Source: an uncultured Gammaproteobacteria bacterium
GTDB taxonomy: Bacteria; Patescibacteriota; Microgenomatia; CAYQLK01
NCBI GenBank assembly: GCA_964404855.1
Contig: CAYOLO010000001.1
Coordinates: 297,322-361,321, forward strand
Length of the DNA stretch: 64,000 bases
Direction of reading: 5' to 3'
The position numbers and the translations under genes were made by a program. This document shows, piece by piece, positions 48,744 to 58,888 of this stretch (the stretch's first letter is position 1; each line of letters starts with the position of its first letter). A model generated the notes under the pieces. It had not been told where the DNA came from. It saw nothing but the letters and a program-made list of their open reading frames with translations, and searched no databases.

Positions 48744-49238
48744 ATGGAAAGAACATTAGTACTACTTAAGCCTGACGCAGTTGATCGTGGTTTGGTTGGT
48801 GAGATTTTACAAAGATTTGAAAAAGTCGGACTAAAAATCGCTGGAATGAAACTAATTTGGCCAAAAGAAGATGTGGCAAAAAAACACTACACAGAAGATT
48901 TGGCGGCTAGGCGTGGCGAAAATATTAGGAACATGATGATTGAAATGCTTGTGTCTGGACCAGTGGTAGCCGTTTGTTTGGAAGGTATTGAGGCCGTTGA
49001 ACAGGTTAGGAAAATGGTAGGCTCGACTGAGCCTAAATCCGCCCTGCCTGGCACGATTCGTGGTGATTATGCACATGTTTCTTATAAACATGCGGACGAG
49101 AAAGGTATTGGAATCTTTAACTTAATACATGCTTCAAGCAGTGTTGAAGAAGGGATTACTGAGACTGAGGTGTGGTTTAGTGAAGACGAACTTTGTGACC
49201 ACGAAGCAAGTTATACAAAGCACACAATTAAGTATTAA
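48744..49238 (+). CDS. ndk: nucleoside diphosphate kinase
   Basis: ERTLVLLKPDAV...GLKIAGMK and the NLIHAS active-site region. C-terminal extension. Confidence 0.85.
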   Translation: MERTLVLLKPDAVDRGLVGEILQRFEKVGLKIAGMKLIWPKEDVAKKHYTEDLAARRGENIRNMMIEMLVSGPVVAVCLEGIEAVEQVRKMVGSTEPKSALPGTIRGDYAHVSYKHADEKGIGIFNLIHASSSVEEGITETEVWFSEDELCDHEASYTKHTIKY

Positions 49239-49469
49239 AAATTGAGGCTAAAAATCTATTGACCTGTTAATGTTTAAGTGTTAGAATCGCGTACAGCAAA
49301 ATTAAAGATTAAAGCTTATTTAAACGGGACAGACTAATTTTCGGGGGAAATCCCGTTTTTAGTTGGTTTCCCAATATACTTATTAGCTTAATATTTAGCT
49401 GACTCACAAGATTGCAGGTTGTGTGGGTTGAGACTGAAGGACTATCGCTTGTTAGTTGCGATGATTTTT

Positions 49470-49542
49470 GGGCCGGTAGCTCAGTTGGTAGAGCATCGCA
49501 TTTGCAATGCGAGGGTCAGGAGTTCGAGTCTCCTTCGGTCCA
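49470..49542 (+). tRNA. tRNA-Ala (anticodon UGC), leader of the rRNA unit
   Basis: gggccgg...anticodon loop ttTGCaa...T-arm aggag-ttcgagt-ctcct. G3:U70 pair. Confidence 0.8.
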
Positions 49543-49726
49543 CTGTTTAGACTTTTGAACGGGTATTTTAAAATTAAAATTCCCGTATTTGGGTCTAACC
49601 AAAACAAAAAATTAGGCTTGAACTTTAAAAACTGAATAGAAAATATTTGTCCAAAAATATTTTTGACGAGAAAAACTTTTACAGAAAAGAGAAAAAATTA
49701 GTTCTTTATCTGCGAACAAAAAAGAT

Positions 49727-52622
<2,896 letters not shown>

Positions 52623-52836
52623 GAGTTTTCTTGTTTTTTAAAACAAGATATTTCCAGTCTTTTTTATTCGCAAAAAGAATTTTTCGTTCTTAAGTGTTTA
52701 AAAGGCAAATTAAGTTTTGTGATAAATTTCTTATCTTTAACAATTTATTGTTAAAGGCAGAAATGATTTGCGAAGCAAACATTTCTATTCAGTTTTTAGG
52801 TGTTCAAGCTTTTTTTGTGCTTGAAAGATTACTATT

Positions 52837-53217
52837 ATGGCAAAACCAGAGAGTAAAATATTCGATTTTGATTTAGGTGGTTATTTTGATTTTGGTGCGC
52901 CTGAAATTAAGGGAGAGTTTTCTGAAGATGAGGTTGATTTTTTAGGTGCAGTCTTAAGAGATAGAGTAATGGTTAGAATGCTTGCGAAAAGGGGAATTAA
53001 TGTCCGAGCTGTTTTGAGATACATGCTAAGTGAAGAAGAAATCGTTGGGTTTCTGGAGTCATCTGTGTCAGAAGATGTTATGGCTGAAGTGGCAAAACAT
53101 CTTGATTTTAGAGTGAATACAGCACTTTTGAATGAAAAAATTGAACCTGAGAGTGCAGAAAGGATATTAGCTTTTCGAAATAGCCGACTGCCAGCGTTTA
53201 CTTTGGACCAGTCTTGA
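52837..53217 (+). CDS. hypothetical small acidic protein encoded in the 23S-5S spacer
   Basis: A 126-aa ORF with protein-like composition (MAKPESKIFDFDLGG...). No recognisable family. It lies entirely between the rRNA genes. Confidence 0.35.
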   Translation: MAKPESKIFDFDLGGYFDFGAPEIKGEFSEDEVDFLGAVLRDRVMVRMLAKRGINVRAVLRYMLSEEEIVGFLESSVSEDVMAEVAKHLDFRVNTALLNEKIEPESAERILAFRNSRLPAFTLDQS

Positions 53218-53243
53218 CATTAAGAGTAAATGAAGCTAAAATT

Positions 53244-53360
53244 CTCGAACGGTTGTTGAAGCGGTTTGGTCCCACCTGATCCCATCCCGAACTCAGAAGT
53301 GAAACGAGCCAGCGGTGACAATAGTTATTGCGAAAGCGATTATGAAGATAGCTCGCAGCC
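53244..53360 (+). rRNA. rrf: 5S ribosomal RNA
   Basis: Conserved core ggtcccacctgatcccatcccgaactcagaagtgaaacg. The ends are approximate. Confidence 0.6.
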
Positions 53361-54015
53361 GTATTAAGATTTAGCCATCCCTAAAGGATGGCTATTTTTT
53401 TGTTTGCCCTCTAAAGTGCGTATTCAAATGCTTAGAATTACGCCTTGCGCCTTGAGAACACTCAAGGCTAAAAGGAGGGCTTTTTGTTTTTTGTAGCTGC
53501 GTTTTTGCTCAAAAGATAGTTACTCGCTAGAACTCGTCAAAATTCTGGTTCCACCAAATTTTTCCTTGTTCAAGCTACGTCCTGCGAATCAGGATACCTG
53601 ATTCTAATGCTCGCAGCCGTATTAAAATTTGACCATCCCTAAAGGATGGTCATTTTTTTTGTTATATTTTGCCCTCTAAAGTGCGTATTCAAGTGCTTTG
53701 AATTACGCCTTGCGCCTTGAGAACACTCAAGGCTAAAAGGAGAGCTTTTTCTTTATGTACACCATCTAAAATGCTCGCTCAATCGAGCTTGAGCTACGCT
53801 TTGCGCTTCAAGATTAAAAAATATTTTAATCCTCTCGTTGAGAAGGAAACCTAAAGCTAAAAAGATGGTCATTTTTTTGGTTGTTTTCTGATTAAGGATA
53901 GTTACTCGCCAAAATTCCTCCAAAAACTGTCTCCGTCATTTTTGTCATCAGTTTTGGCTACGTCCTGCGTTTTGGGAAACCCAAAACTTAAAAGGAGGGC
54001 TTTTTGTTTGTTTGC
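53336..54015 (+). repeat. degenerate tandem array of ~150-bp modules, each carrying intrinsic-terminator-like hairpins
   Basis: Two near-identical modules at 53336-53490 and 53607-53760 (gctcgcagccgtattaa..ccatccctaaaggatgg+T-run..gccttgagaacactcaaggc..aaaaggagggcttttt), plus two or more partial copies (53795-53880, 53960-54015). The first module includes the 5S 3' end. Confidence 0.75.
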
Positions 54016-54214
54016 GACCTTCGATGAGGTTTTTTTTTATTGTGTGTCGAGTTACTAAGACGAATCTTGAACACTTTATACCACTTCGCGAGTCAATCGA
54101 CAAATACTGGGATAGAAGTAAGTTCAATTACGCCGTTTTTAGCCAGGCAATCCTAGAAACTAACAACCAATTTCAGTATAATGGAATGTACCGATACTAA
54201 GGGAAATATCGAAA

Positions 54215-54469
54215 GTGCGCCACCTGGCGCAAAATAATAAAGATACTATGAACGCAACAAACGACACGCAAAAACCTACACCTGAAAGCACGAACCCTAT
54301 TAAGCAGGTTGTTGATGTGATGAAAAAGGTCGATACCTCTAGCCCAGAGGCAAAGCAGAACGAAGTAAGCATTACCGACAAAAACGGCAAGCGTATAAAA
54401 CTAGACGACGAAGAAGTGAGATTTAATTATTTTAAGGGAACTTTTGAACGAAAAAGCGGCAAAAAATAG
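54215..54469 (+). CDS. hypothetical small protein (element-borne)
   Basis: 84-aa ORF. No recognisable domain. Confidence 0.35.
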   Translation: MRHLAQNNKDTMNATNDTQKPTPESTNPIKQVVDVMKKVDTSSPEAKQNEVSITDKNGKRIKLDDEEVRFNYFKGTFERKSGKK

Positions 54470-54503
54470 TCTATCTTATTAAGCAAGTCCATGTTGAACA
54501 TAT

Positions 54504-55118
54504 ATGTATGCTATTAACGATAACGAATTTATCGAAAAACACGTAACCGATGCACTCTACAAAAAGATAATCGGTGAACTTCGCACGAATCTCGACGGTA
54601 CAAAGAAAAAAGATAAGGGCAGGAAACGAGAACTAACCCGCGAAATACTACGCCAATATCTTTTTAACCTGTCTCTGACTGGCGAGTACGAATTCTCGGC
54701 TGAATCCGCAGGTTTGCCAGAAAAAAGAAGGCAAAAATACATGACTGAATCAGAGTCATTTCGTGGGGTATCTAGCCTGGCGAAGAATAATGTGTCGCTA
54801 CGGTCAAGAATAGCGGTTGCCCAGGCCATAATGGGACGTAGGCCGAGCTACTATAAACTTACTCACCCAATTACGAACCAGCCTACCTACATAGAGTTAA
54901 AAGAAACTCTGCCGAACGTTAATGCGGCTATGTGGTGGCTGGAAAAAGTAGATAAAATTGGCGCAGTGAAAGAAGACGACGACCCATACAAAAATCCCAA
55001 ACTGGGCGCACCACGAAACGAGCATGAAGCTGAATTGTTAGAAGGACTTTTGAAGAGTCACACGGATTACGAGATAGAAAAGTGGCAAAAAGCGCGACAG
55101 GCGCAACAACAAAAATAA
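54504..55118 (+). CDS. hypothetical protein (element-borne)
   Basis: 204-aa ORF of charged composition. No recognisable motif. Confidence 0.45.
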   Translation: MYAINDNEFIEKHVTDALYKKIIGELRTNLDGTKKKDKGRKRELTREILRQYLFNLSLTGEYEFSAESAGLPEKRRQKYMTESESFRGVSSLAKNNVSLRSRIAVAQAIMGRRPSYYKLTHPITNQPTYIELKETLPNVNAAMWWLEKVDKIGAVKEDDDPYKNPKLGAPRNEHEAELLEGLLKSHTDYEIEKWQKARQAQQQK

Positions 55119-55196
55119 AGCAACAATTGGGCCATAGGTCTTGATAATCTTAGATGGGTTTGGTATATTGATTTTGTTAACTCTAGTTAACTTAAT

Positions 55197-56321
55197 ATGA
55201 CCGACAAAGCCACTTTCAATAAAAACATCTACAAAACTACAGGCGACTTGTTAAGTGTAAAAGAAGCCGCTGATTTACTTGGTACTCACCCGAATACAAT
55301 TCGTAGATGGGCAAAGGATGGGAAAATTAAGTCCACCCGTGTGGGTGCGAGAAAAGACAGGAAATTTAATAAAGATGAACTTCTTAAAGAAGCGTTGAAT
55401 GTCAAAGTCGTGGATGGTAAGCAGGAAGCCTACGAAAAATACTACGATTATCTGAAATCTTTATTCAAAAGAACGATTGAAAAGAACCCCGTAGAGTCCT
55501 TGTATAACACCCTTCAAGTTTCTGGTATGCACTATGGACACTGGGACCCGACTTACGAAATTTACGACTTTTTCGATGACTTTAATAAATTACTCGCCGA
55601 GGAAAGCAAAAAAGACCCATCTTCGAAACGTGTCTACCGCATTGGCCTTTTGATGTATGGCCATGCAATAGAGATGGCTCTACCGTGGAACTTACTTGCC
55701 AACGCTCTGAATATATTGAATGGTCGCCCATATAACGTTAGTCCATTCTTAGACCTTATGAGAAGAAAAAAGGGCTCGTTGTACTCGATACCACCATCCA
55801 CAAAACAAAAGATGGTTAGGGTCAAAGAACTCGCTAGAGAAGCTAAAGAAGAAAAGCTAGTAGAGATTATCGACGAATTTTTCAGTGACGCCGTTCGAAA
55901 TAGTTTTTACCATTCCGACTACTGCCTGACCGATACAGAGTTTCGCTTTTCCGATGGCGGAATCGCTTCTTCAAAGCATTTAGAGGAAATTGACCATCTA
56001 ATAAGTCGCTGTTTTGCTTTTTACGAGGCTTTGCTTAACGCTCATTCGTGGACAAGGGCATTTTATAAAGCCGTAAAGCCCTACCACAAATGGCCAAACT
56101 ACGAGGTATTCGAAATACTAAAGAACGATAAAGAAGTTTATGGCTTCAAGGTTCACTTTTCTAATGGCCAGGTAGCAAAGTTCACGCGCGAACCTGAAAA
56201 GGTAGAGGCCATAAATCTACACTTTGACCATGATGGCAGTATCAACTTTTTTGCGGGCAACCTGGACAAACTAACTAAACAGTGGCTTTTAGACGGCAAG
56301 CCGTTTACAGAGAAACAATAA
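55197..56321 (+). CDS. excisionase/MerR-type HTH DNA-binding protein with a large C-terminal domain of unknown function
   Basis: N-terminal LSVKEAADLLGTHPNTIRRWAKDGKIKSTRVG (HTH_17-like). Confidence 0.55.
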   Translation: MTDKATFNKNIYKTTGDLLSVKEAADLLGTHPNTIRRWAKDGKIKSTRVGARKDRKFNKDELLKEALNVKVVDGKQEAYEKYYDYLKSLFKRTIEKNPVESLYNTLQVSGMHYGHWDPTYEIYDFFDDFNKLLAEESKKDPSSKRVYRIGLLMYGHAIEMALPWNLLANALNILNGRPYNVSPFLDLMRRKKGSLYSIPPSTKQKMVRVKELAREAKEEKLVEIIDEFFSDAVRNSFYHSDYCLTDTEFRFSDGGIASSKHLEEIDHLISRCFAFYEALLNAHSWTRAFYKAVKPYHKWPNYEVFEILKNDKEVYGFKVHFSNGQVAKFTREPEKVEAINLHFDHDGSINFFAGNLDKLTKQWLLDGKPFTEKQ

Positions 56322-56326
56322 CATCT

Positions 56327-57214
56327 ATGAGAAACAGAATTAAGTATTCCCAAAATTTCCTTAAAAGCAGTGATTTAATCGAAAGCCTTTTAGAAAAATC
56401 TTCTATTAGCGCGGACGACGTAGTCATAGAAATAGGTGCAGGTGAAGGCATTATTACCCAAGAACTCGCAAAAAAAGCTAAAAAGGTTATCGCTTTTGAA
56501 ATAGATAATAACTTATCCCAAAAACTTAAAGCCAGGTTCCTAGATAAAGGCCTCGTAGAAATTATTAGTCAAGATTTTCTTCAATTTGAACTACCCAAAA
56601 ATGATTACAAAGTGTTTTCAAACATCCCCTTTAATCTTACGGCCAATATAATCAAGAAGCTCGCCTATGCAAACATTCCACCCATAGATAGCTATTTAAT
56701 TATTCAAAAAGAAGCCGCCCAAAAGTTTGCAGGAAAGCCACTTTCGGCCAACAATAGCCTTGTTTCAGTTTTAATTCAGAGTCATTTTGAAGTTTCCATC
56801 TTCCACCAATTTAGAAAAGATGACTTCTTCCCCAGACCAATGGTGGATACTGTAATGATTAGGTTTCAAAAACTGGATGTAGCGAAAATAAAAGCTAATG
56901 AAAAAGATTTATTTTATGACTTTGTTACATTTGGCTTTAACCAGTTCGAGCCAAACATATTTAAGGGCTTATCTAAGGTTATGAACACCAACGCCATAAA
57001 TGAAGTTGCTAACACCAATCGTTTTTCCGTCACAGTTAAACCAAGTCAACTTAATACAAGCGATTGGGTAGCTTTATTTGAAAAGTTCAACTTAGTAGGC
57101 AACAAATCTAAAGTCTTGGGAAATTACAAACGGTTGTTAGGGCAACAAAGTACGTTAGAAAAAGTAAACCGAACCAGGCTAGATAAAAACTGGAAAAATA
57201 GTGCTTCTAACTAG
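56327..57214 (+). CDS. Erm-family 23S rRNA (adenine-N6)-methyltransferase-like protein (KsgA/Erm fold)
   Basis: KYSQNFL, VIEIGAGEGIIT (SAM-binding), FSNIPFNLTANIIKKL, and FFPRPMVDTVMIRF match ErmB/ErmC block for block. The ATG at 56327 sits 5 nt after the upstream stop. Confidence 0.6.
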   Translation: MRNRIKYSQNFLKSSDLIESLLEKSSISADDVVIEIGAGEGIITQELAKKAKKVIAFEIDNNLSQKLKARFLDKGLVEIISQDFLQFELPKNDYKVFSNIPFNLTANIIKKLAYANIPPIDSYLIIQKEAAQKFAGKPLSANNSLVSVLIQSHFEVSIFHQFRKDDFFPRPMVDTVMIRFQKLDVAKIKANEKDLFYDFVTFGFNQFEPNIFKGLSKVMNTNAINEVANTNRFSVTVKPSQLNTSDWVALFEKFNLVGNKSKVLGNYKRLLGQQSTLEKVNRTRLDKNWKNSASN

Positions 57215-57223
57215 AGTAAAACT

Positions 57224-58834
57224 ATGTATGACGAAGAAAACCAAGTCGATATTAAATCGCTAAAATATGTTCTATACGCTCGTAAATCAACCGACGACCC
57301 ACAAAGGCAGTTGCGTTCAATCCCTGACCAAATAGACGAATGTAAAAAGCTAGCCGAACGACTTGAACTAAACGTAGTCGAAGTTTTAGAAGAAAAGAAA
57401 TCAGCAAAAATACCCAGACGAAGACCAGTCTTTGATTCGATGATGGAAGCAATCGGCAAGGGTCAATACGACGCGATACTGGCCTGGCATCCCGACAGAT
57501 TAGCTCGTAACGCCCTTGAAGCTGGCGTCCTAATCGAAATGGTGGACGAAGGAATAATTCAGGACTTAAAATTCGTTACCCACCACTTTAGCCCAGACGC
57601 TAATGGCAAAATGCTTCTGGGAATGGCCTTTGTACTGTCTAAGCAATACAGCGATAAACTTTCCCAGGATGTTACCAGGGGCGTTAGAAGACGCCATAGA
57701 GAAGGTATAACACCTGCCTTTAAGCATGGTTACCTTCGAGACGAAAATGGTATCTATAGACCCGATGGTGAAAAGTTCGACTTAATAAAACAAGGCTGGA
57801 TTATGCGCGCCGATGGAGAATCCTTAGAGGACATCGCGAAATATCTTAATGATAATAATTACTTCCGACTTATTATCGGTGAGAAAAGTAAAAACTATCT
57901 GGGGAAGCAGTACATGACTACCCAGAAGTTAAGTAACATATTCAAAGACCCTTTTTACTTTGGTTTGTTGGTGCAAGTAAAGCAAGAAGTAGATTTATGC
58001 GAAATGCACGAGGATTTCGTGGCAATGGTAAGCCGAGATTTATACGATAAGGTACAAGCGTTGACATTAAATCGGCCAAATCCCTATAAAACCAAGCACC
58101 CAAACTTTTATCCCTTAAAACAAATGATTGATTGCGCCTATTGCGGGGGCAACATGGTCGTAGGCCCGTCTAGTGGTCGTAAAGAAAACTATTTGTATTA
58201 CCGATGCGATACCGCTTCTTGCGCTAGAAATACGCTTGAAAACAAATCTAAACGCCCAAGCGACCCTACAAAAATTAAGGTGTCAATTCGAGCAAAGATA
58301 ATCTTTGACTTTATTTACGACTTCTTGAAGGACGGCCTCGGTTTAACAGAAAAGGAATACAAAGAATACTATCAAGGACTTAAAGCCCTGGGTGATAACG
58401 AGCTTCAAAAGATACGAGCGCAGATAGCAAGCTATCAAGGACAGCGACGCCATTTACAGTCCGAGGTTAGAAGAATTGCCCTTAGCTTGCCAAGAATCAG
58501 AGATGACGAGACGGTTTACCAAATCAATAAAGAAGAACTTGAAAAGGATAAACGCGACCTTAGCCAAGTGGAGACTAATATCGAAAAGTTAAAGGCGAAA
58601 CTTGTTGATAAAGACGATGACGAACTGTCCCTAGAAGAATTCTTGAACATATCAAAAAATGCAGGTAAGAAGGTCAAAGCTGGCGATGCAATCGTAAAAG
58701 ATACAATTTGCCGAATAATCTTCTTGAACATAGCCGTCGACAACGAAAAAGTGACGTCGTATCGGCTAAAAGAACCCTTCGCTACCCTGCTAAAAAGCAG
58801 GTCTTCCCAAAATGGTCGGGGTGGTCGGATTTGA
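57224..58834 (+). CDS. large serine recombinase (resolvase-type catalytic domain + recombinase/zinc-ribbon/coiled-coil C-terminus)
   Basis: YARKSTDDPQRQ...SIPDQ catalytic Ser region, DRLARN, C-terminal CxxC...C cluster (CAYCGG...CDTASC) and coiled-coil. The last 22 nt are tRNA-Pro sequence. Confidence 0.8.
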   Translation: MYDEENQVDIKSLKYVLYARKSTDDPQRQLRSIPDQIDECKKLAERLELNVVEVLEEKKSAKIPRRRPVFDSMMEAIGKGQYDAILAWHPDRLARNALEAGVLIEMVDEGIIQDLKFVTHHFSPDANGKMLLGMAFVLSKQYSDKLSQDVTRGVRRRHREGITPAFKHGYLRDENGIYRPDGEKFDLIKQGWIMRADGESLEDIAKYLNDNNYFRLIIGEKSKNYLGKQYMTTQKLSNIFKDPFYFGLLVQVKQEVDLCEMHEDFVAMVSRDLYDKVQALTLNRPNPYKTKHPNFYPLKQMIDCAYCGGNMVVGPSSGRKENYLYYRCDTASCARNTLENKSKRPSDPTKIKVSIRAKIIFDFIYDFLKDGLGLTEKEYKEYYQGLKALGDNELQKIRAQIASYQGQRRHLQSEVRRIALSLPRIRDDETVYQINKEELEKDKRDLSQVETNIEKLKAKLVDKDDDELSLEEFLNISKNAGKKVKAGDAIVKDTICRIIFLNIAVDNEKVTSYRLKEPFATLLKSRSSQNGRGGRI

Positions 58835-58888
58835 ACCGACGGCCTCGCCGTCCCGAACGACGCGCTCTACCAGCTGAGCTACACCCCG
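58813..58888 (-). tRNA. tRNA-Pro (anticodon CGG), CCA encoded
   Basis: Minus-strand cloverleaf: cggggtg-ta-gctc-agctggta-gagc-g-cgtcg-ttCGGga-cggcg-aggcc-gtcgg-ttcaaat-ccgac-caccccg-a-cca. Confidence 0.8.

What the first reader, a model, noticed from the sequence alone, without database searches (positions are those of the whole stretch)
52837..53217. Protein-coding ORF inside the 23S-5S rRNA spacer
A 126-aa ORF with good protein-like, acidic composition (MAKPESKIFDFDLGGYFDFGAPEIKGEFSEDEVDFLGAVLRDRV...) lies between the 3' end of the 23S (~52622) and the 5S (~53244). It would be co-transcribed with the rRNA. Coding genes within rRNA operon spacers are rare and are often intron or homing-endonuclease remnants, or selfish or toxin-like elements. 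This one matches no family I recognise.
Basis: partly seen in the sequence, partly recalled or inferred. Interest (0 to 1): 0.5.

Follow-up and report, generated by a model that had tools for sequence, protein, structure and literature searches.

The report
Conserved orphan gene inside 23S–5S spacer

Summary
The 23S ends at 52624, a 126-codon ORF occupies 52837-53217, and the 5S starts at 53248.

**It is a genuine protein gene.**
- All 17 distinct 23S-5S spacers from 52 public loci keep it open (120-126 aa); the other frames carry 7-22 stops.
- dN/dS is 0.11-0.30 with dS up to about 2, and there are no frameshifts.
- Relatives only 43% identical occupy the same slot and have strong Shine-Dalgarno sites.

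**New context.**
- The 212-nt 23S-to-ORF spacer is the 3' strand of an 84-bp leader-trailer stem enclosing the 23S. The stem ends 13 nt before the ATG.
- The ORF has no recognisable promoter or preceding terminator, so co-transcription with the 23S is inferred.
- The 5S has its own conserved TTGACA-17-TAAAAT promoter, whose -35 contains the ORF stop codon.

**The protein** is acidic and all-helical, with an invariant N-terminal FDFxLGGYxDF peptide and an arginine-rich helix pair. It evolves 4-10 times faster than its neighbours. A pre-rRNA or ribosome-linked role is a guess.

Moderately interesting: a new variant of spacer-encoded genes already noted in CPR bacteria.

The parts
49259..49287 (+). 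Operon promoter, TTGACC-17-TAGAAT with TG extension, upstream of tRNA-Ala and the 23S
   Evidence: Scan (10 of 12). The hexamers are invariant and the spacer between them varies in four lineages. It is one of 5 TTGAC-N18-TAnAAT sites in the window against 0.35 expected.
49470..49543 (+). tRNA-Ala(UGC), first gene of the transcription unit
   Evidence: ARAGORN and Rfam.
49600..49727 (+). 5' strand of the long-range leader-trailer stem that encloses the 23S
   Evidence: Cofold gives 84 intermolecular pairs. Interaction ddG is -43.7 kcal/mol against -13.5 +/- 3.8 for shuffles. This stretch is invariant in the five leader types of the main clade and slightly different in L048.
49729..52624 (+). 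23S rRNA, uninterrupted
   Evidence: Rfam RF02541, 2467 bits, model 1-2925.
52629..52648 (+). Local hairpin just 3' of the 23S
   Evidence: Cofold. It is kept, with a longer stem of different sequence, in L014 and L048. One compensatory pair was counted (helix 9).
52656..52710 (+). Proximal 3' strand of the 23S stem, pairing with 49645-49727
   Evidence: helices 5, 6, 8. Conserved even in L014, which lacks the middle insert.
52714..52776 (+). Variable insert of local hairpins inside the trailer
   Evidence: It is duplicated (+52 nt) in the L013/L019 type and absent in L014. Five pairs show compensatory changes (helix 12).
52782..52823 (+). Distal 3' strand of the 23S stem, pairing with 49600-49642. 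It ends 13 nt before the ATG.
   Evidence: helices 3, 4. Invariant in all lineages including L014 and L048.
52837..53217 (+). Protein-coding gene: 126 aa, orphan family, stop codon TGA at 53215-53217
53214..53242 (+). Internal sigma-70-type promoter for the 5S, TTGACA-17-TAAAAT. The ORF stop codon lies inside the -35 hexamer.
   Evidence: 11 of 12 match. The hexamers are invariant and the 17-nt spacer varies across three clades. In L014 and L048 the element lies in non-coding DNA. Pattern enrichment is 5 observed against 0.35 expected.
53248..53364 (+). 5S rRNA. It starts 6 nt after the -10 hexamer.
   Evidence: Rfam RF00001, 69.2 bits.
53372..53394 (+). Intrinsic terminator hairpin plus T-run, closing the unit
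   Evidence: Conserved with compensatory changes in relatives.

Best explanation
The ORF is a genuine, vertically inherited gene for a small cytoplasmic protein that has become part of the tRNA-Ala-23S transcription unit of a small-genome, CPR-like bacterium (probably Saccharibacteria). That taxon is inferred, not verified.

Proposed mechanism:
1. Transcription starts at the operon promoter (49259-49287) and runs through tRNA-Ala and the 23S.
2. It continues, with no terminator, into the ORF and on to the terminator behind the 5S.
3. In the precursor, about 128 nt of leader pair with the 23S trailer in an 84-bp interrupted stem. This is the usual substrate type for RNase III release of pre-23S, and its base lies 13 nt upstream of the ORF start codon.
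4. The ORF message is therefore either the precursor itself or the 3' fragment left after the 23S is cut out.
5. Synthesis of the protein is consequently tied to rRNA transcription.
6. The 5S downstream has its own promoter, so its supply does not depend on this read-through.

The protein has a disordered acidic/aromatic N-terminal peptide (FDFxLGGYxDF, invariant) and a helical core with an invariant arginine-rich helix pair (R43, R52, R57, R61, Y62). I take it to be a binding or adaptor protein acting on pre-rRNA, the ribosome or the transcription machinery.

Shown: coding status, fixed position, the stem, the 5S promoter signature, and the absence of known relatives. Inferred: co-transcription, translation from the precursor or excised trailer, and the functional class.
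For: Coding status:
- The frame is open in 17 of 17 distinct spacers from 52 loci, and the other frames are full of stops.
- dN/dS is 0.11-0.21 within the main clade at dS 0.13-1.5, and 0.28-0.30 to the distant clades.
- There are no indels within the main clade.
- GC3 is 0.26, within the genome range of 0.23-0.36.
- Distant homologues P0017 and P0018 (43% identity) occupy the same slot, with AAGGAG and GGGAGG 5-6 nt before the ATG.

Sharp contrast in constraint (window against L001): 23S 99.8%, trailer 97.2%, ORF 77.2% and 5S 99.1% identity.

Stem:
- 84 intermolecular pairs.
- ddG is about 8 sd beyond shuffles.
- The same architecture is predicted independently in L001, L019 and L048.
- 95% of cells pair, against 39-56% when the partners are slid.
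- The trailer segments kept in L014 are exactly the paired ones.

Transcription:
- No promoter-like or terminator-like site on the + strand lies between 52625 and 52836.
- The 5S promoter is conserved as hexamers with a variable 17-nt spacer.
- The promoter pattern is enriched and always correctly placed in this genome.

Protein: AF2 gives pLDDT 72 overall and 80-91 in the core. It predicts six helices and a disordered N-terminus.
Against: - There are no expression data of any kind: no RNA-seq, TSS map, Ribo-seq or proteomics.
- Excised rRNA spacers are normally degraded fast. The stem base, 13 nt from the ATG, could hinder 30S loading.
- The window clade has no Shine-Dalgarno sequence, although only about 5 of 35 genes in the window have one.
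- Support for the long-range stem is thermodynamic and by conservation. Only one compensatory pair was seen, because the leader is almost invariant.
- An atypical promoter inside the trailer cannot be excluded by a consensus scan.
- The protein evolves 4-10 times faster in dN than ndk, the MGMT-like gene and sortase. That is unusual for a core ribosome-biogenesis factor.
Confidence: 0.6

Rival explanations
1. The ORF is an ordinary independent gene that merely lies between two separately transcribed RNA genes. The 23S transcript ends or is processed in the trailer, and the ORF is driven by a non-consensus promoter of its own, just as the 5S is.
For: The 5S clearly has its own promoter, so the '23S-5S operon' is already partly dissolved. 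CPR genomes often have unlinked rRNA genes with intervening genes (PMC8172020). The consensus scan only detects sigma-70-like sites.
Against: No promoter-like site of at least 9 of 12 lies on the + strand in 52625-52836, and there is no terminator-like hairpin with a T-run after the 23S. Nearly every trailer base conserved across clades is accounted for by pairing with the 23S leader. The 13-23 nt between the stem and the ATG differ between clades.
Confidence: 0.2
2. The ORF is a remnant or cargo of a selfish element that lodged in the rRNA operon: a homing endonuclease, intron ORF, toxin, or phage-derived gene.
For: Protein genes found in CPR rRNA spacers are often homing endonucleases (PMC8172020). 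The protein evolves fast. An integrative element sits just downstream of the 5S in this window.
Against: - There is no endonuclease, toxin or defence-family signal.
- The predicted fold is all-helical, with none of the beta strands of a LAGLIDADG core.
- The 23S is uninterrupted.
- The gene is present and intact in every locus of three subclades and under purifying selection.
- There are no relatives in IMG/VR, phage or plasmid collections.
- There is no partner gene beside it.
- The downstream element is absent from relatives that still have the ORF.
Confidence: 0.05
3. The ORF is not translated. The region is a structured non-coding part of the pre-rRNA, and the open frame is accidental, like the spurious ORFs called inside the 23S.
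For: Gene callers do emit false ORFs inside rRNA in these same contigs (window 51232-51591 and 51796-52233). The flanking spacer is indeed structured RNA.
Against: Nucleotide identity collapses to 73-77% exactly over the ORF, while the flanks stay at 90-99%. Substitutions concentrate at third positions, 33/26/76. dN/dS is far below 1 with saturated dS. The frame and length are kept at 43% amino-acid identity, and Shine-Dalgarno sites are present in the distant clades.
Confidence: 0.02

Closest known systems
Protein-coding genes in the rRNA spacers of CPR/Patescibacteria genomes (Lui et al. 2021, PMC8172020, section 9)
   Same: A protein gene lies on the same strand between the 23S and 5S of a small-genome, CPR-like bacterium whose 16S is unlinked.
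   Different: That paper reports that the spacer genes are often homing endonucleases and gives no analysis of conservation. Here the gene is not an endonuclease and belongs to an orphan family. It is fixed in a whole clade under purifying selection. It also has a defined position relative to the 23S processing stem and an internal 5S promoter.
Homing-endonuclease ORFs of rRNA introns and spacers (LAGLIDADG, GIY-YIG, HNH)
   Same: A protein ORF physically embedded in an rRNA locus.
   Different: There is no motif or HMM match, no intron, and an all-alpha predicted fold. The distribution is not sporadic, there is no decay, and there are no copies elsewhere.
23S rRNA intervening-sequence protein (S23p, Pfam PF05635), encoded in 23S IVS elements of Leptospira, Coxiella and others (my own knowledge)
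RNase III processing stems flanking bacterial 23S rRNA (for example Iost et al. 2019, PMC6582327, for the unlinked 23S-5S unit of Helicobacter pylori; abstract seen)
   Same: Leader and trailer sequences flanking the 23S are complementary and conserved.
   Different: The stem is unusually long: 84 bp over about 128 and 168 nt, with a variable hairpin insert. Its base abuts a protein start codon. Cleavage was not tested.
ORFs reported inside rRNA sequences: the E. coli 23S pentapeptide mini-gene and mitochondrial humanin / MOTS-c (my own knowledge)
   Same: A coding potential associated with an rRNA transcript.
   Different: Those are very short ORFs within the mature rRNA sequence. This is a 126-codon gene in a spacer, with clear protein-level selection.

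Membership tests
Bona fide protein-coding gene | Reading frame and length conserved in relatives | tested here: met
   17 of 17 distinct spacers from 52 loci have an open frame of 120-126 aa. The other frames carry 7-22 stops.
Bona fide protein-coding gene | Purifying selection at the protein level (dN/dS well below 1, third-position bias) | tested here: met
   dN/dS is 0.11-0.30 and dS reaches about 2. Variable sites by codon position are 33/26/76.
Bona fide protein-coding gene | Translation initiation signals | tested here: inconclusive
   Strong SD sites (AAGGAG, GGGAGG) are present in the distant clades. The window clade has none, but only about 5 of 35 window genes have one.
Bona fide protein-coding gene | Direct evidence of translation (peptides, ribosome footprints) | not testable with these tools
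   No expression data are available.
Homing endonuclease / intron ORF | LAGLIDADG, GIY-YIG, HNH or His-Cys box domain | tested here: not met
   Pfam at E up to 10 on 10 members gives none. The predicted fold is all-alpha.
Homing endonuclease / intron ORF | Located in an intron or intein that interrupts the host gene | tested here: not met
   The 23S matches the Rfam model 1-2925 without interruption. The ORF is in the spacer.
Homing endonuclease / intron ORF | Sporadic, mobile distribution | tested here: not met
   It is present in every locus of the clade at one site. It is absent from viral, phage and plasmid collections.
23S rRNA intervening-sequence protein (PF05635) | Match to the family profile | tested here: not met
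   Not listed at E up to 10.
23S rRNA intervening-sequence protein (PF05635) | Four-helix-bundle fold | tested here: inconclusive
T4 RegB endoribonuclease (PF10715) | Match to the family profile above the curated cut-off | tested here: not met
   The best score is 15 bits against a cut-off of 27 (E 0.025), in two members only. hhalign of the family alignment against T4 RegB gives a probability of 0.3%.
23S processing stem (RNase III substrate type) | Extended complementarity between the 5' leader and 3' trailer of the 23S | tested here: met
   There are 84 intermolecular pairs. ddG is -43.7 against -13.5 +/- 3.8 for shuffles. The architecture is reproduced in 3 other sequence types.
23S processing stem (RNase III substrate type) | Covariation supporting the pairs | tested here: inconclusive
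   Most long-range pairs never vary, and only one is compensatory. 95% of cells pair, against 39-56% when slid.
23S processing stem (RNase III substrate type) | Cleavage by RNase III | not testable with these tools
   This needs cleavage mapping. No RNase III gene was looked for outside the window.
Sigma-70-type promoter (for the 5S) | -35 and -10 hexamers at 17-nt spacing, placed correctly before the transcript | tested here: met
   TTGACA-17-TAAAAT ends 6 nt before the 5S.
Sigma-70-type promoter (for the 5S) | Hexamers conserved while the spacer varies | tested here: met
   The operon promoter shows the same footprint. The pattern occurs 5 times against 0.35 expected, always upstream of genes.
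Sigma-70-type promoter (for the 5S) | Mapped transcription start | not testable with these tools
   This needs dRNA-seq or primer extension.
Helix-turn-helix nucleic-acid-binding proteins | Profile or fold match to an HTH family | tested here: inconclusive

The most novel reading that the evidence does not exclude
The gene encodes a lineage-specific ribosome- or pre-rRNA-associated protein, either an extra ribosomal or assembly factor or a regulator of rRNA processing or transcription. Its mRNA is the 23S trailer itself, liberated when the giant leader-trailer stem is cleaved. Protein dose would then be hard-wired to rRNA synthesis. That would be a bacterial case of an mRNA produced as a by-product of rRNA maturation.
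Probability: 0.2. Interest if true: 0.75.

Novelty: new variant of a known kind. Interest (0 to 1): 0.5.

Why it matters
Protein genes in rRNA spacers are usually dismissed as homing endonucleases or mis-calls. This one is a clean counter-example. It is an orphan protein kept by selection at one precise place in the pre-rRNA, directly behind the 23S processing stem, in a clade of reduced-genome, probably episymbiotic bacteria.

If it is translated from the precursor or the excised trailer, it gives a simple way to couple a protein's dose to rRNA output. It would also be a candidate for a lineage-specific ribosome-biogenesis or ribosome-associated factor, in organisms known for pared-down ribosomes.

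The locus also shows a self-contained 5S gene (promoter, RNA, terminator) inside what looks like a 23S-5S operon. That matters for how 'linked' rRNA genes are scored in genome surveys. In practice, the sharp contrast between ORF and flank constraints is a useful template for telling real spacer genes from spurious ORFs.

Tried and rejected
1. **Family and fold assignment.** None of these gave a significant match:
   - Pfam, NCBIfam, PHROGs and PADLOC.
   - PDB sequence search, by profile and by single sequence.
   - Foldseek against the PDB and BFVD.
   - The afdb50 library was unavailable.
2. **RegB endoribonuclease lead.** It rested on PF10715 at E 0.025 and phrog_1323 at E 0.063. It was rejected by hhalign against T4 RegB, with a probability of 0.3%.
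3. **Local similarity to M. tuberculosis adenylate kinase** (E 0.06-0.12). I judged this to be chance.
4. **Wider relatives.** An exhaustive HMM search of 1.84 billion representatives gave only two clusters. The profile word-index search added only P0018.
5. **Mobile origin.** There were no hits in IMG/VR, INPHARED phages or PLSDB plasmids.
6. **A relative lacking the ORF.**
   - The genome scan found one locus, which has the ORF.
   - The metagenome scan with a trailer motif found one locus, also with the ORF.
   - The ndk-anchored outgroup locus L064 has no rRNA genes downstream.
   - So the ancestral state is unknown.
7. **Organism identity.** The NCBI record for the 660,813-bp contig could not be retrieved. 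CPR affinity rests on gene content and on named NDK relatives.
8. **Known RNA families in the spacer.** None.
9. **Paralogue in the window.** None.
10. **Literature.** Searches for the peptide motifs gave nothing. Searches for spacer-encoded proteins gave only the general CPR observation.

Full report
**1. The observation**

Rfam finds an uninterrupted bacterial 23S at 49729-52624 and a 5S at 53248-53364. A tRNA-Ala(UGC) lies at 49470-49543. The product is acidic: pI 4.7, 24 D/E against 16 K/R. So the coordinates and description are right. There is no 16S anywhere in the 64-kb window. An ndk gene lies just upstream of the tRNA-Ala, so the 16S is unlinked.

**2. Is it a gene?**

- A search of 5.8 billion proteins found full-length relatives at 94, 79 and 72% identity.
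- An exhaustive HMM search of 1.84 billion cluster representatives found only one further cluster (P0017, 120 aa).
- A profile search added P0018 (121 aa). Both are 43% identical to the window protein.
- Every encoding contig that could be examined has the ORF between a 23S 3' end and a 5S.
- Across 52 loci there are 17 distinct 23S-5S spacers. All keep the frame open (120-126 aa), while the other two frames carry 7-22 stops.
- In the main clade, variable sites by codon position are 33/26/76.
- Nei-Gojobori dN/dS is 0.11-0.21 within the main clade at dS 0.13-1.5. It is 0.28-0.30 to the distant clades.
- The main clade has no indels in the coding part.
- The two distant clades have canonical Shine-Dalgarno sequences, AAGGAG and GGGAGG, 5-6 nt before the ATG.
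- The window clade has none, but only about 5 of 35 genes in the window do.
- GC3 is 0.26, inside the range of the window's genes (0.23-0.36).

The non-coding or chance-ORF reading is excluded. This differs from the spurious ORFs that gene callers emit inside the 23S of the same contigs.

**3. Constraint profile across the locus**

Identity of the window against two relatives:

| Segment | vs L001 | vs L003 |
|---|---|---|
| 23S | 99.8% | 99.2% |
| 23S-to-ORF trailer | 97.2% | 95.3% |
| ORF | 77.2% | 73.5% |
| ORF-to-5S gap | 93% | 90% |
| 5S | 99.1% | 98.3% |

Constraint therefore switches from RNA-level to protein-level exactly at the ATG, and back at the stop codon.

**4. What the upstream spacer is**

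- Co-folding the 23S leader (49544-49728) with the trailer (52625-52860) gives 84 intermolecular base pairs. They join leader 49600-49727 to trailer 52656-52710 and 52782-52823.
- The interaction energy is -43.7 kcal/mol, against -13.5 +/- 3.8 for dinucleotide shuffles of the trailer.
- Independent folds of the L001, L019 and L048 sequence types give the same architecture, with 82 and 75 intermolecular pairs in L001 and L019.
- On an alignment of five leader+trailer types, 95% of cells pair, against 39-56% when partners are slid by 1-3 columns.
- The long-range helices are almost invariant, with only one compensatory pair. Their support is therefore energetic and by conservation pattern rather than by covariation.
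- The middle of the trailer (52714-52776) forms local hairpins. They are duplicated (+52 nt) in the L013/L019 type and absent in L014, and show five compensatory pairs.
- The trailer blocks that survive in L014 are precisely the ones that pair with the leader.
- No Rfam family matches the spacer.

It covers only the 212 nt before the ORF. It is the 3' strand of a very long 23S processing stem, whose base ends 13 nt before the start codon.

**5. Transcription signals**

- A consensus scan finds the operon promoter at 49259-49287 (TTGACC-17-TAGAAT, TG-extended).
- A second and better one lies at 53214-53242 (TTGACA-17-TAAAAT). It ends 6 nt before the first base of the 5S.
- There is also a terminator at 53372-53394.
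- No promoter-like or terminator-like site lies on the + strand between the 23S and the ORF.
- In the alignment of six lineages, the -35 and -10 hexamers before the 5S are invariant while the 17-nt spacer between them diverges.
- In L014 and L048 the element lies in non-coding DNA 30-60 nt past the (shorter) ORF. Its conservation is therefore not a by-product of coding.
- The operon promoter shows the same footprint.
- The pattern TTGAC-N18-TAnAAT occurs five times in the window, against 0.35 expected. Each occurrence is on the + strand just upstream of a + strand gene or RNA.

I conclude that the 5S is a self-contained unit of promoter, RNA and terminator. In the window clade the ORF has extended by about 8 codons, so that its TGA stop lies inside the -35 hexamer. 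The ORF has no detectable promoter of its own, so the economical reading is read-through from the 23S. This is an inference.

**6. The protein**

- AlphaFold2 with 10 sequences gives pLDDT 72 overall and 80-91 for the core. Residues 1-25 are disordered and six helices span 30-117.
- Invariant positions cluster in two places:
  - the disordered N-terminus (F9 D10 F11 L13 G14 G15 Y16 D18 F19);
  - a basic helix-turn-helix-like pair (D42 R43 ... R52 G53 ... R57 A58 L60 R61 Y62).
- Nothing significant is found by Pfam, NCBIfam, PHROGs, PADLOC or PDB sequence search.
- A weak RegB lead was tested and rejected.
- There are no relatives in IMG/VR, phage or plasmid collections, and no paralogue in the window.
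- The protein evolves fast. It is 43% identical where ndk is 92% and sortase is 82-83%. Its dN is 4-10 times that of its neighbours, whose dN/dS is 0.01-0.05.

**7. Interpretation**

The best-supported model is a vertically inherited orphan gene that rides on the tRNA-Ala-23S transcription unit. It would be translated either from the precursor or from the 3' fragment released when the leader-trailer stem is cut, so its output is tied to rRNA transcription.

The conserved acidic/aromatic peptide plus the arginine-rich helices suggest a binding or adaptor protein. The position suggests pre-rRNA, ribosome or RNAP as its partner. This last step is a guess, at about 0.2-0.3.

Rivals:
- An independent gene with an unrecognised promoter (0.2).
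- Selfish-element cargo or remnant (0.05).
- Non-coding (0.02).

**8. Comparison with the known**

Lui et al. 2021 (PMC8172020, section 9) already noted that circularised CPR genomes frequently have unlinked rRNA genes. They also noted that protein genes, often homing endonucleases, can sit between the 16S and 23S or the 23S and 5S. The present case fits that general kind but is a different variant:
- it is not an endonuclease;
- it is fixed and selected in a clade;
- it belongs to no family;
- it has a defined relation to the processing stem and to an internal 5S promoter.

Membership in the homing-endonuclease, 23S-IVS-protein and RegB families was tested and not met.

The organism is CPR-like. 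The evidence is gene content (sortase, ComEC), a source contig of about 660 kb, 40.5% GC, the standard genetic code, and named NDK relatives from CPR at about 70-73% identity. Saccharibacteria is my inference and was not verified.

**9. Verdict**

The finding is of moderate interest (0.5). It is a clean, testable example of a selected protein gene embedded in an rRNA precursor. It brings two unexpected structural neighbours, a giant stem and a private 5S promoter, but no function yet.

Noticed in passing
window 53351-58888: Downstream of the 5S there are three tandem units of about 260 nt, starting at 53351, 53609 and about 53860. Each begins with a copy of the 5S 3' end plus its terminator hairpin. 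A roughly 5-kb block follows, abutting tRNA-Pro(-). It encodes an excisionase-like HTH protein (55197-56321), a methyltransferase-like protein (56282-57214) and a large serine recombinase (57224-58834). Relatives have only about 330-450 nt between the 5S and tRNA-Pro. This looks like an integrative element with scars of repeated integration.
   Followed up: partly
window 48744-49238 and 52837-53217, compared with L039 and L036: The locus is a mosaic. Window against L039 has zero synonymous differences in the ORF, but dS is 0.73 in the adjacent ndk. L036 carries a window-identical ndk with the other (124-aa) ORF type. The rRNA locus appears to recombine between lineages.
   Followed up: partly
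window 53214-53394: The 5S gene is a self-contained unit. A conserved TTGACA-17-TAAAAT promoter ends 6 nt before the 5S, and a terminator lies 8 nt after it. This is unusual for a bacterial '23S-5S operon'. The ORF stop codon sits inside the -35 hexamer.
   Followed up: yes
window 1-49728: There is no 16S rRNA gene in the window. ndk and an MGMT-like gene lie directly upstream of the operon promoter, so the 16S is unlinked from the 23S-5S.
   Followed up: partly
window 49342-49361: A conserved terminator-like hairpin (CGGGGGAAATCCCG plus a T-run) lies between the operon promoter and tRNA-Ala. It may be an attenuator or an antitermination target.
   Followed up: no
window 51232-51591 (+) and 51796-52233 (-); L001 2017-2376 and 2581-2997: ORFs of 119-145 aa inside the 23S are called as genes in public assemblies of these contigs. 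They are spurious rRNA-derived 'proteins'.
   Followed up: partly
L013 (CAYQLK010000015.1): The GTDB representative carrying the ORF is titled 'uncultured Gammaproteobacteria bacterium'. Its rRNA locus matches the CPR-like window lineage, so the label is probably wrong.
   Followed up: no
window, all long ORFs: Only about 5 of 35 long ORFs have a Shine-Dalgarno-like motif upstream, so this genome largely does without SD. The spacer ORF of the distant clades nevertheless has very strong SD sites.
   Followed up: partly
L013 / L019-type loci, trailer (for example L019 5737-6000): The hairpin module TTTCT..[stem-TT-stem]..GCAGAA of the 23S trailer is duplicated (+52 nt) in one sublineage and missing in L014. 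It is a small modular, indel-prone RNA element within the processing stem.
   Followed up: partly
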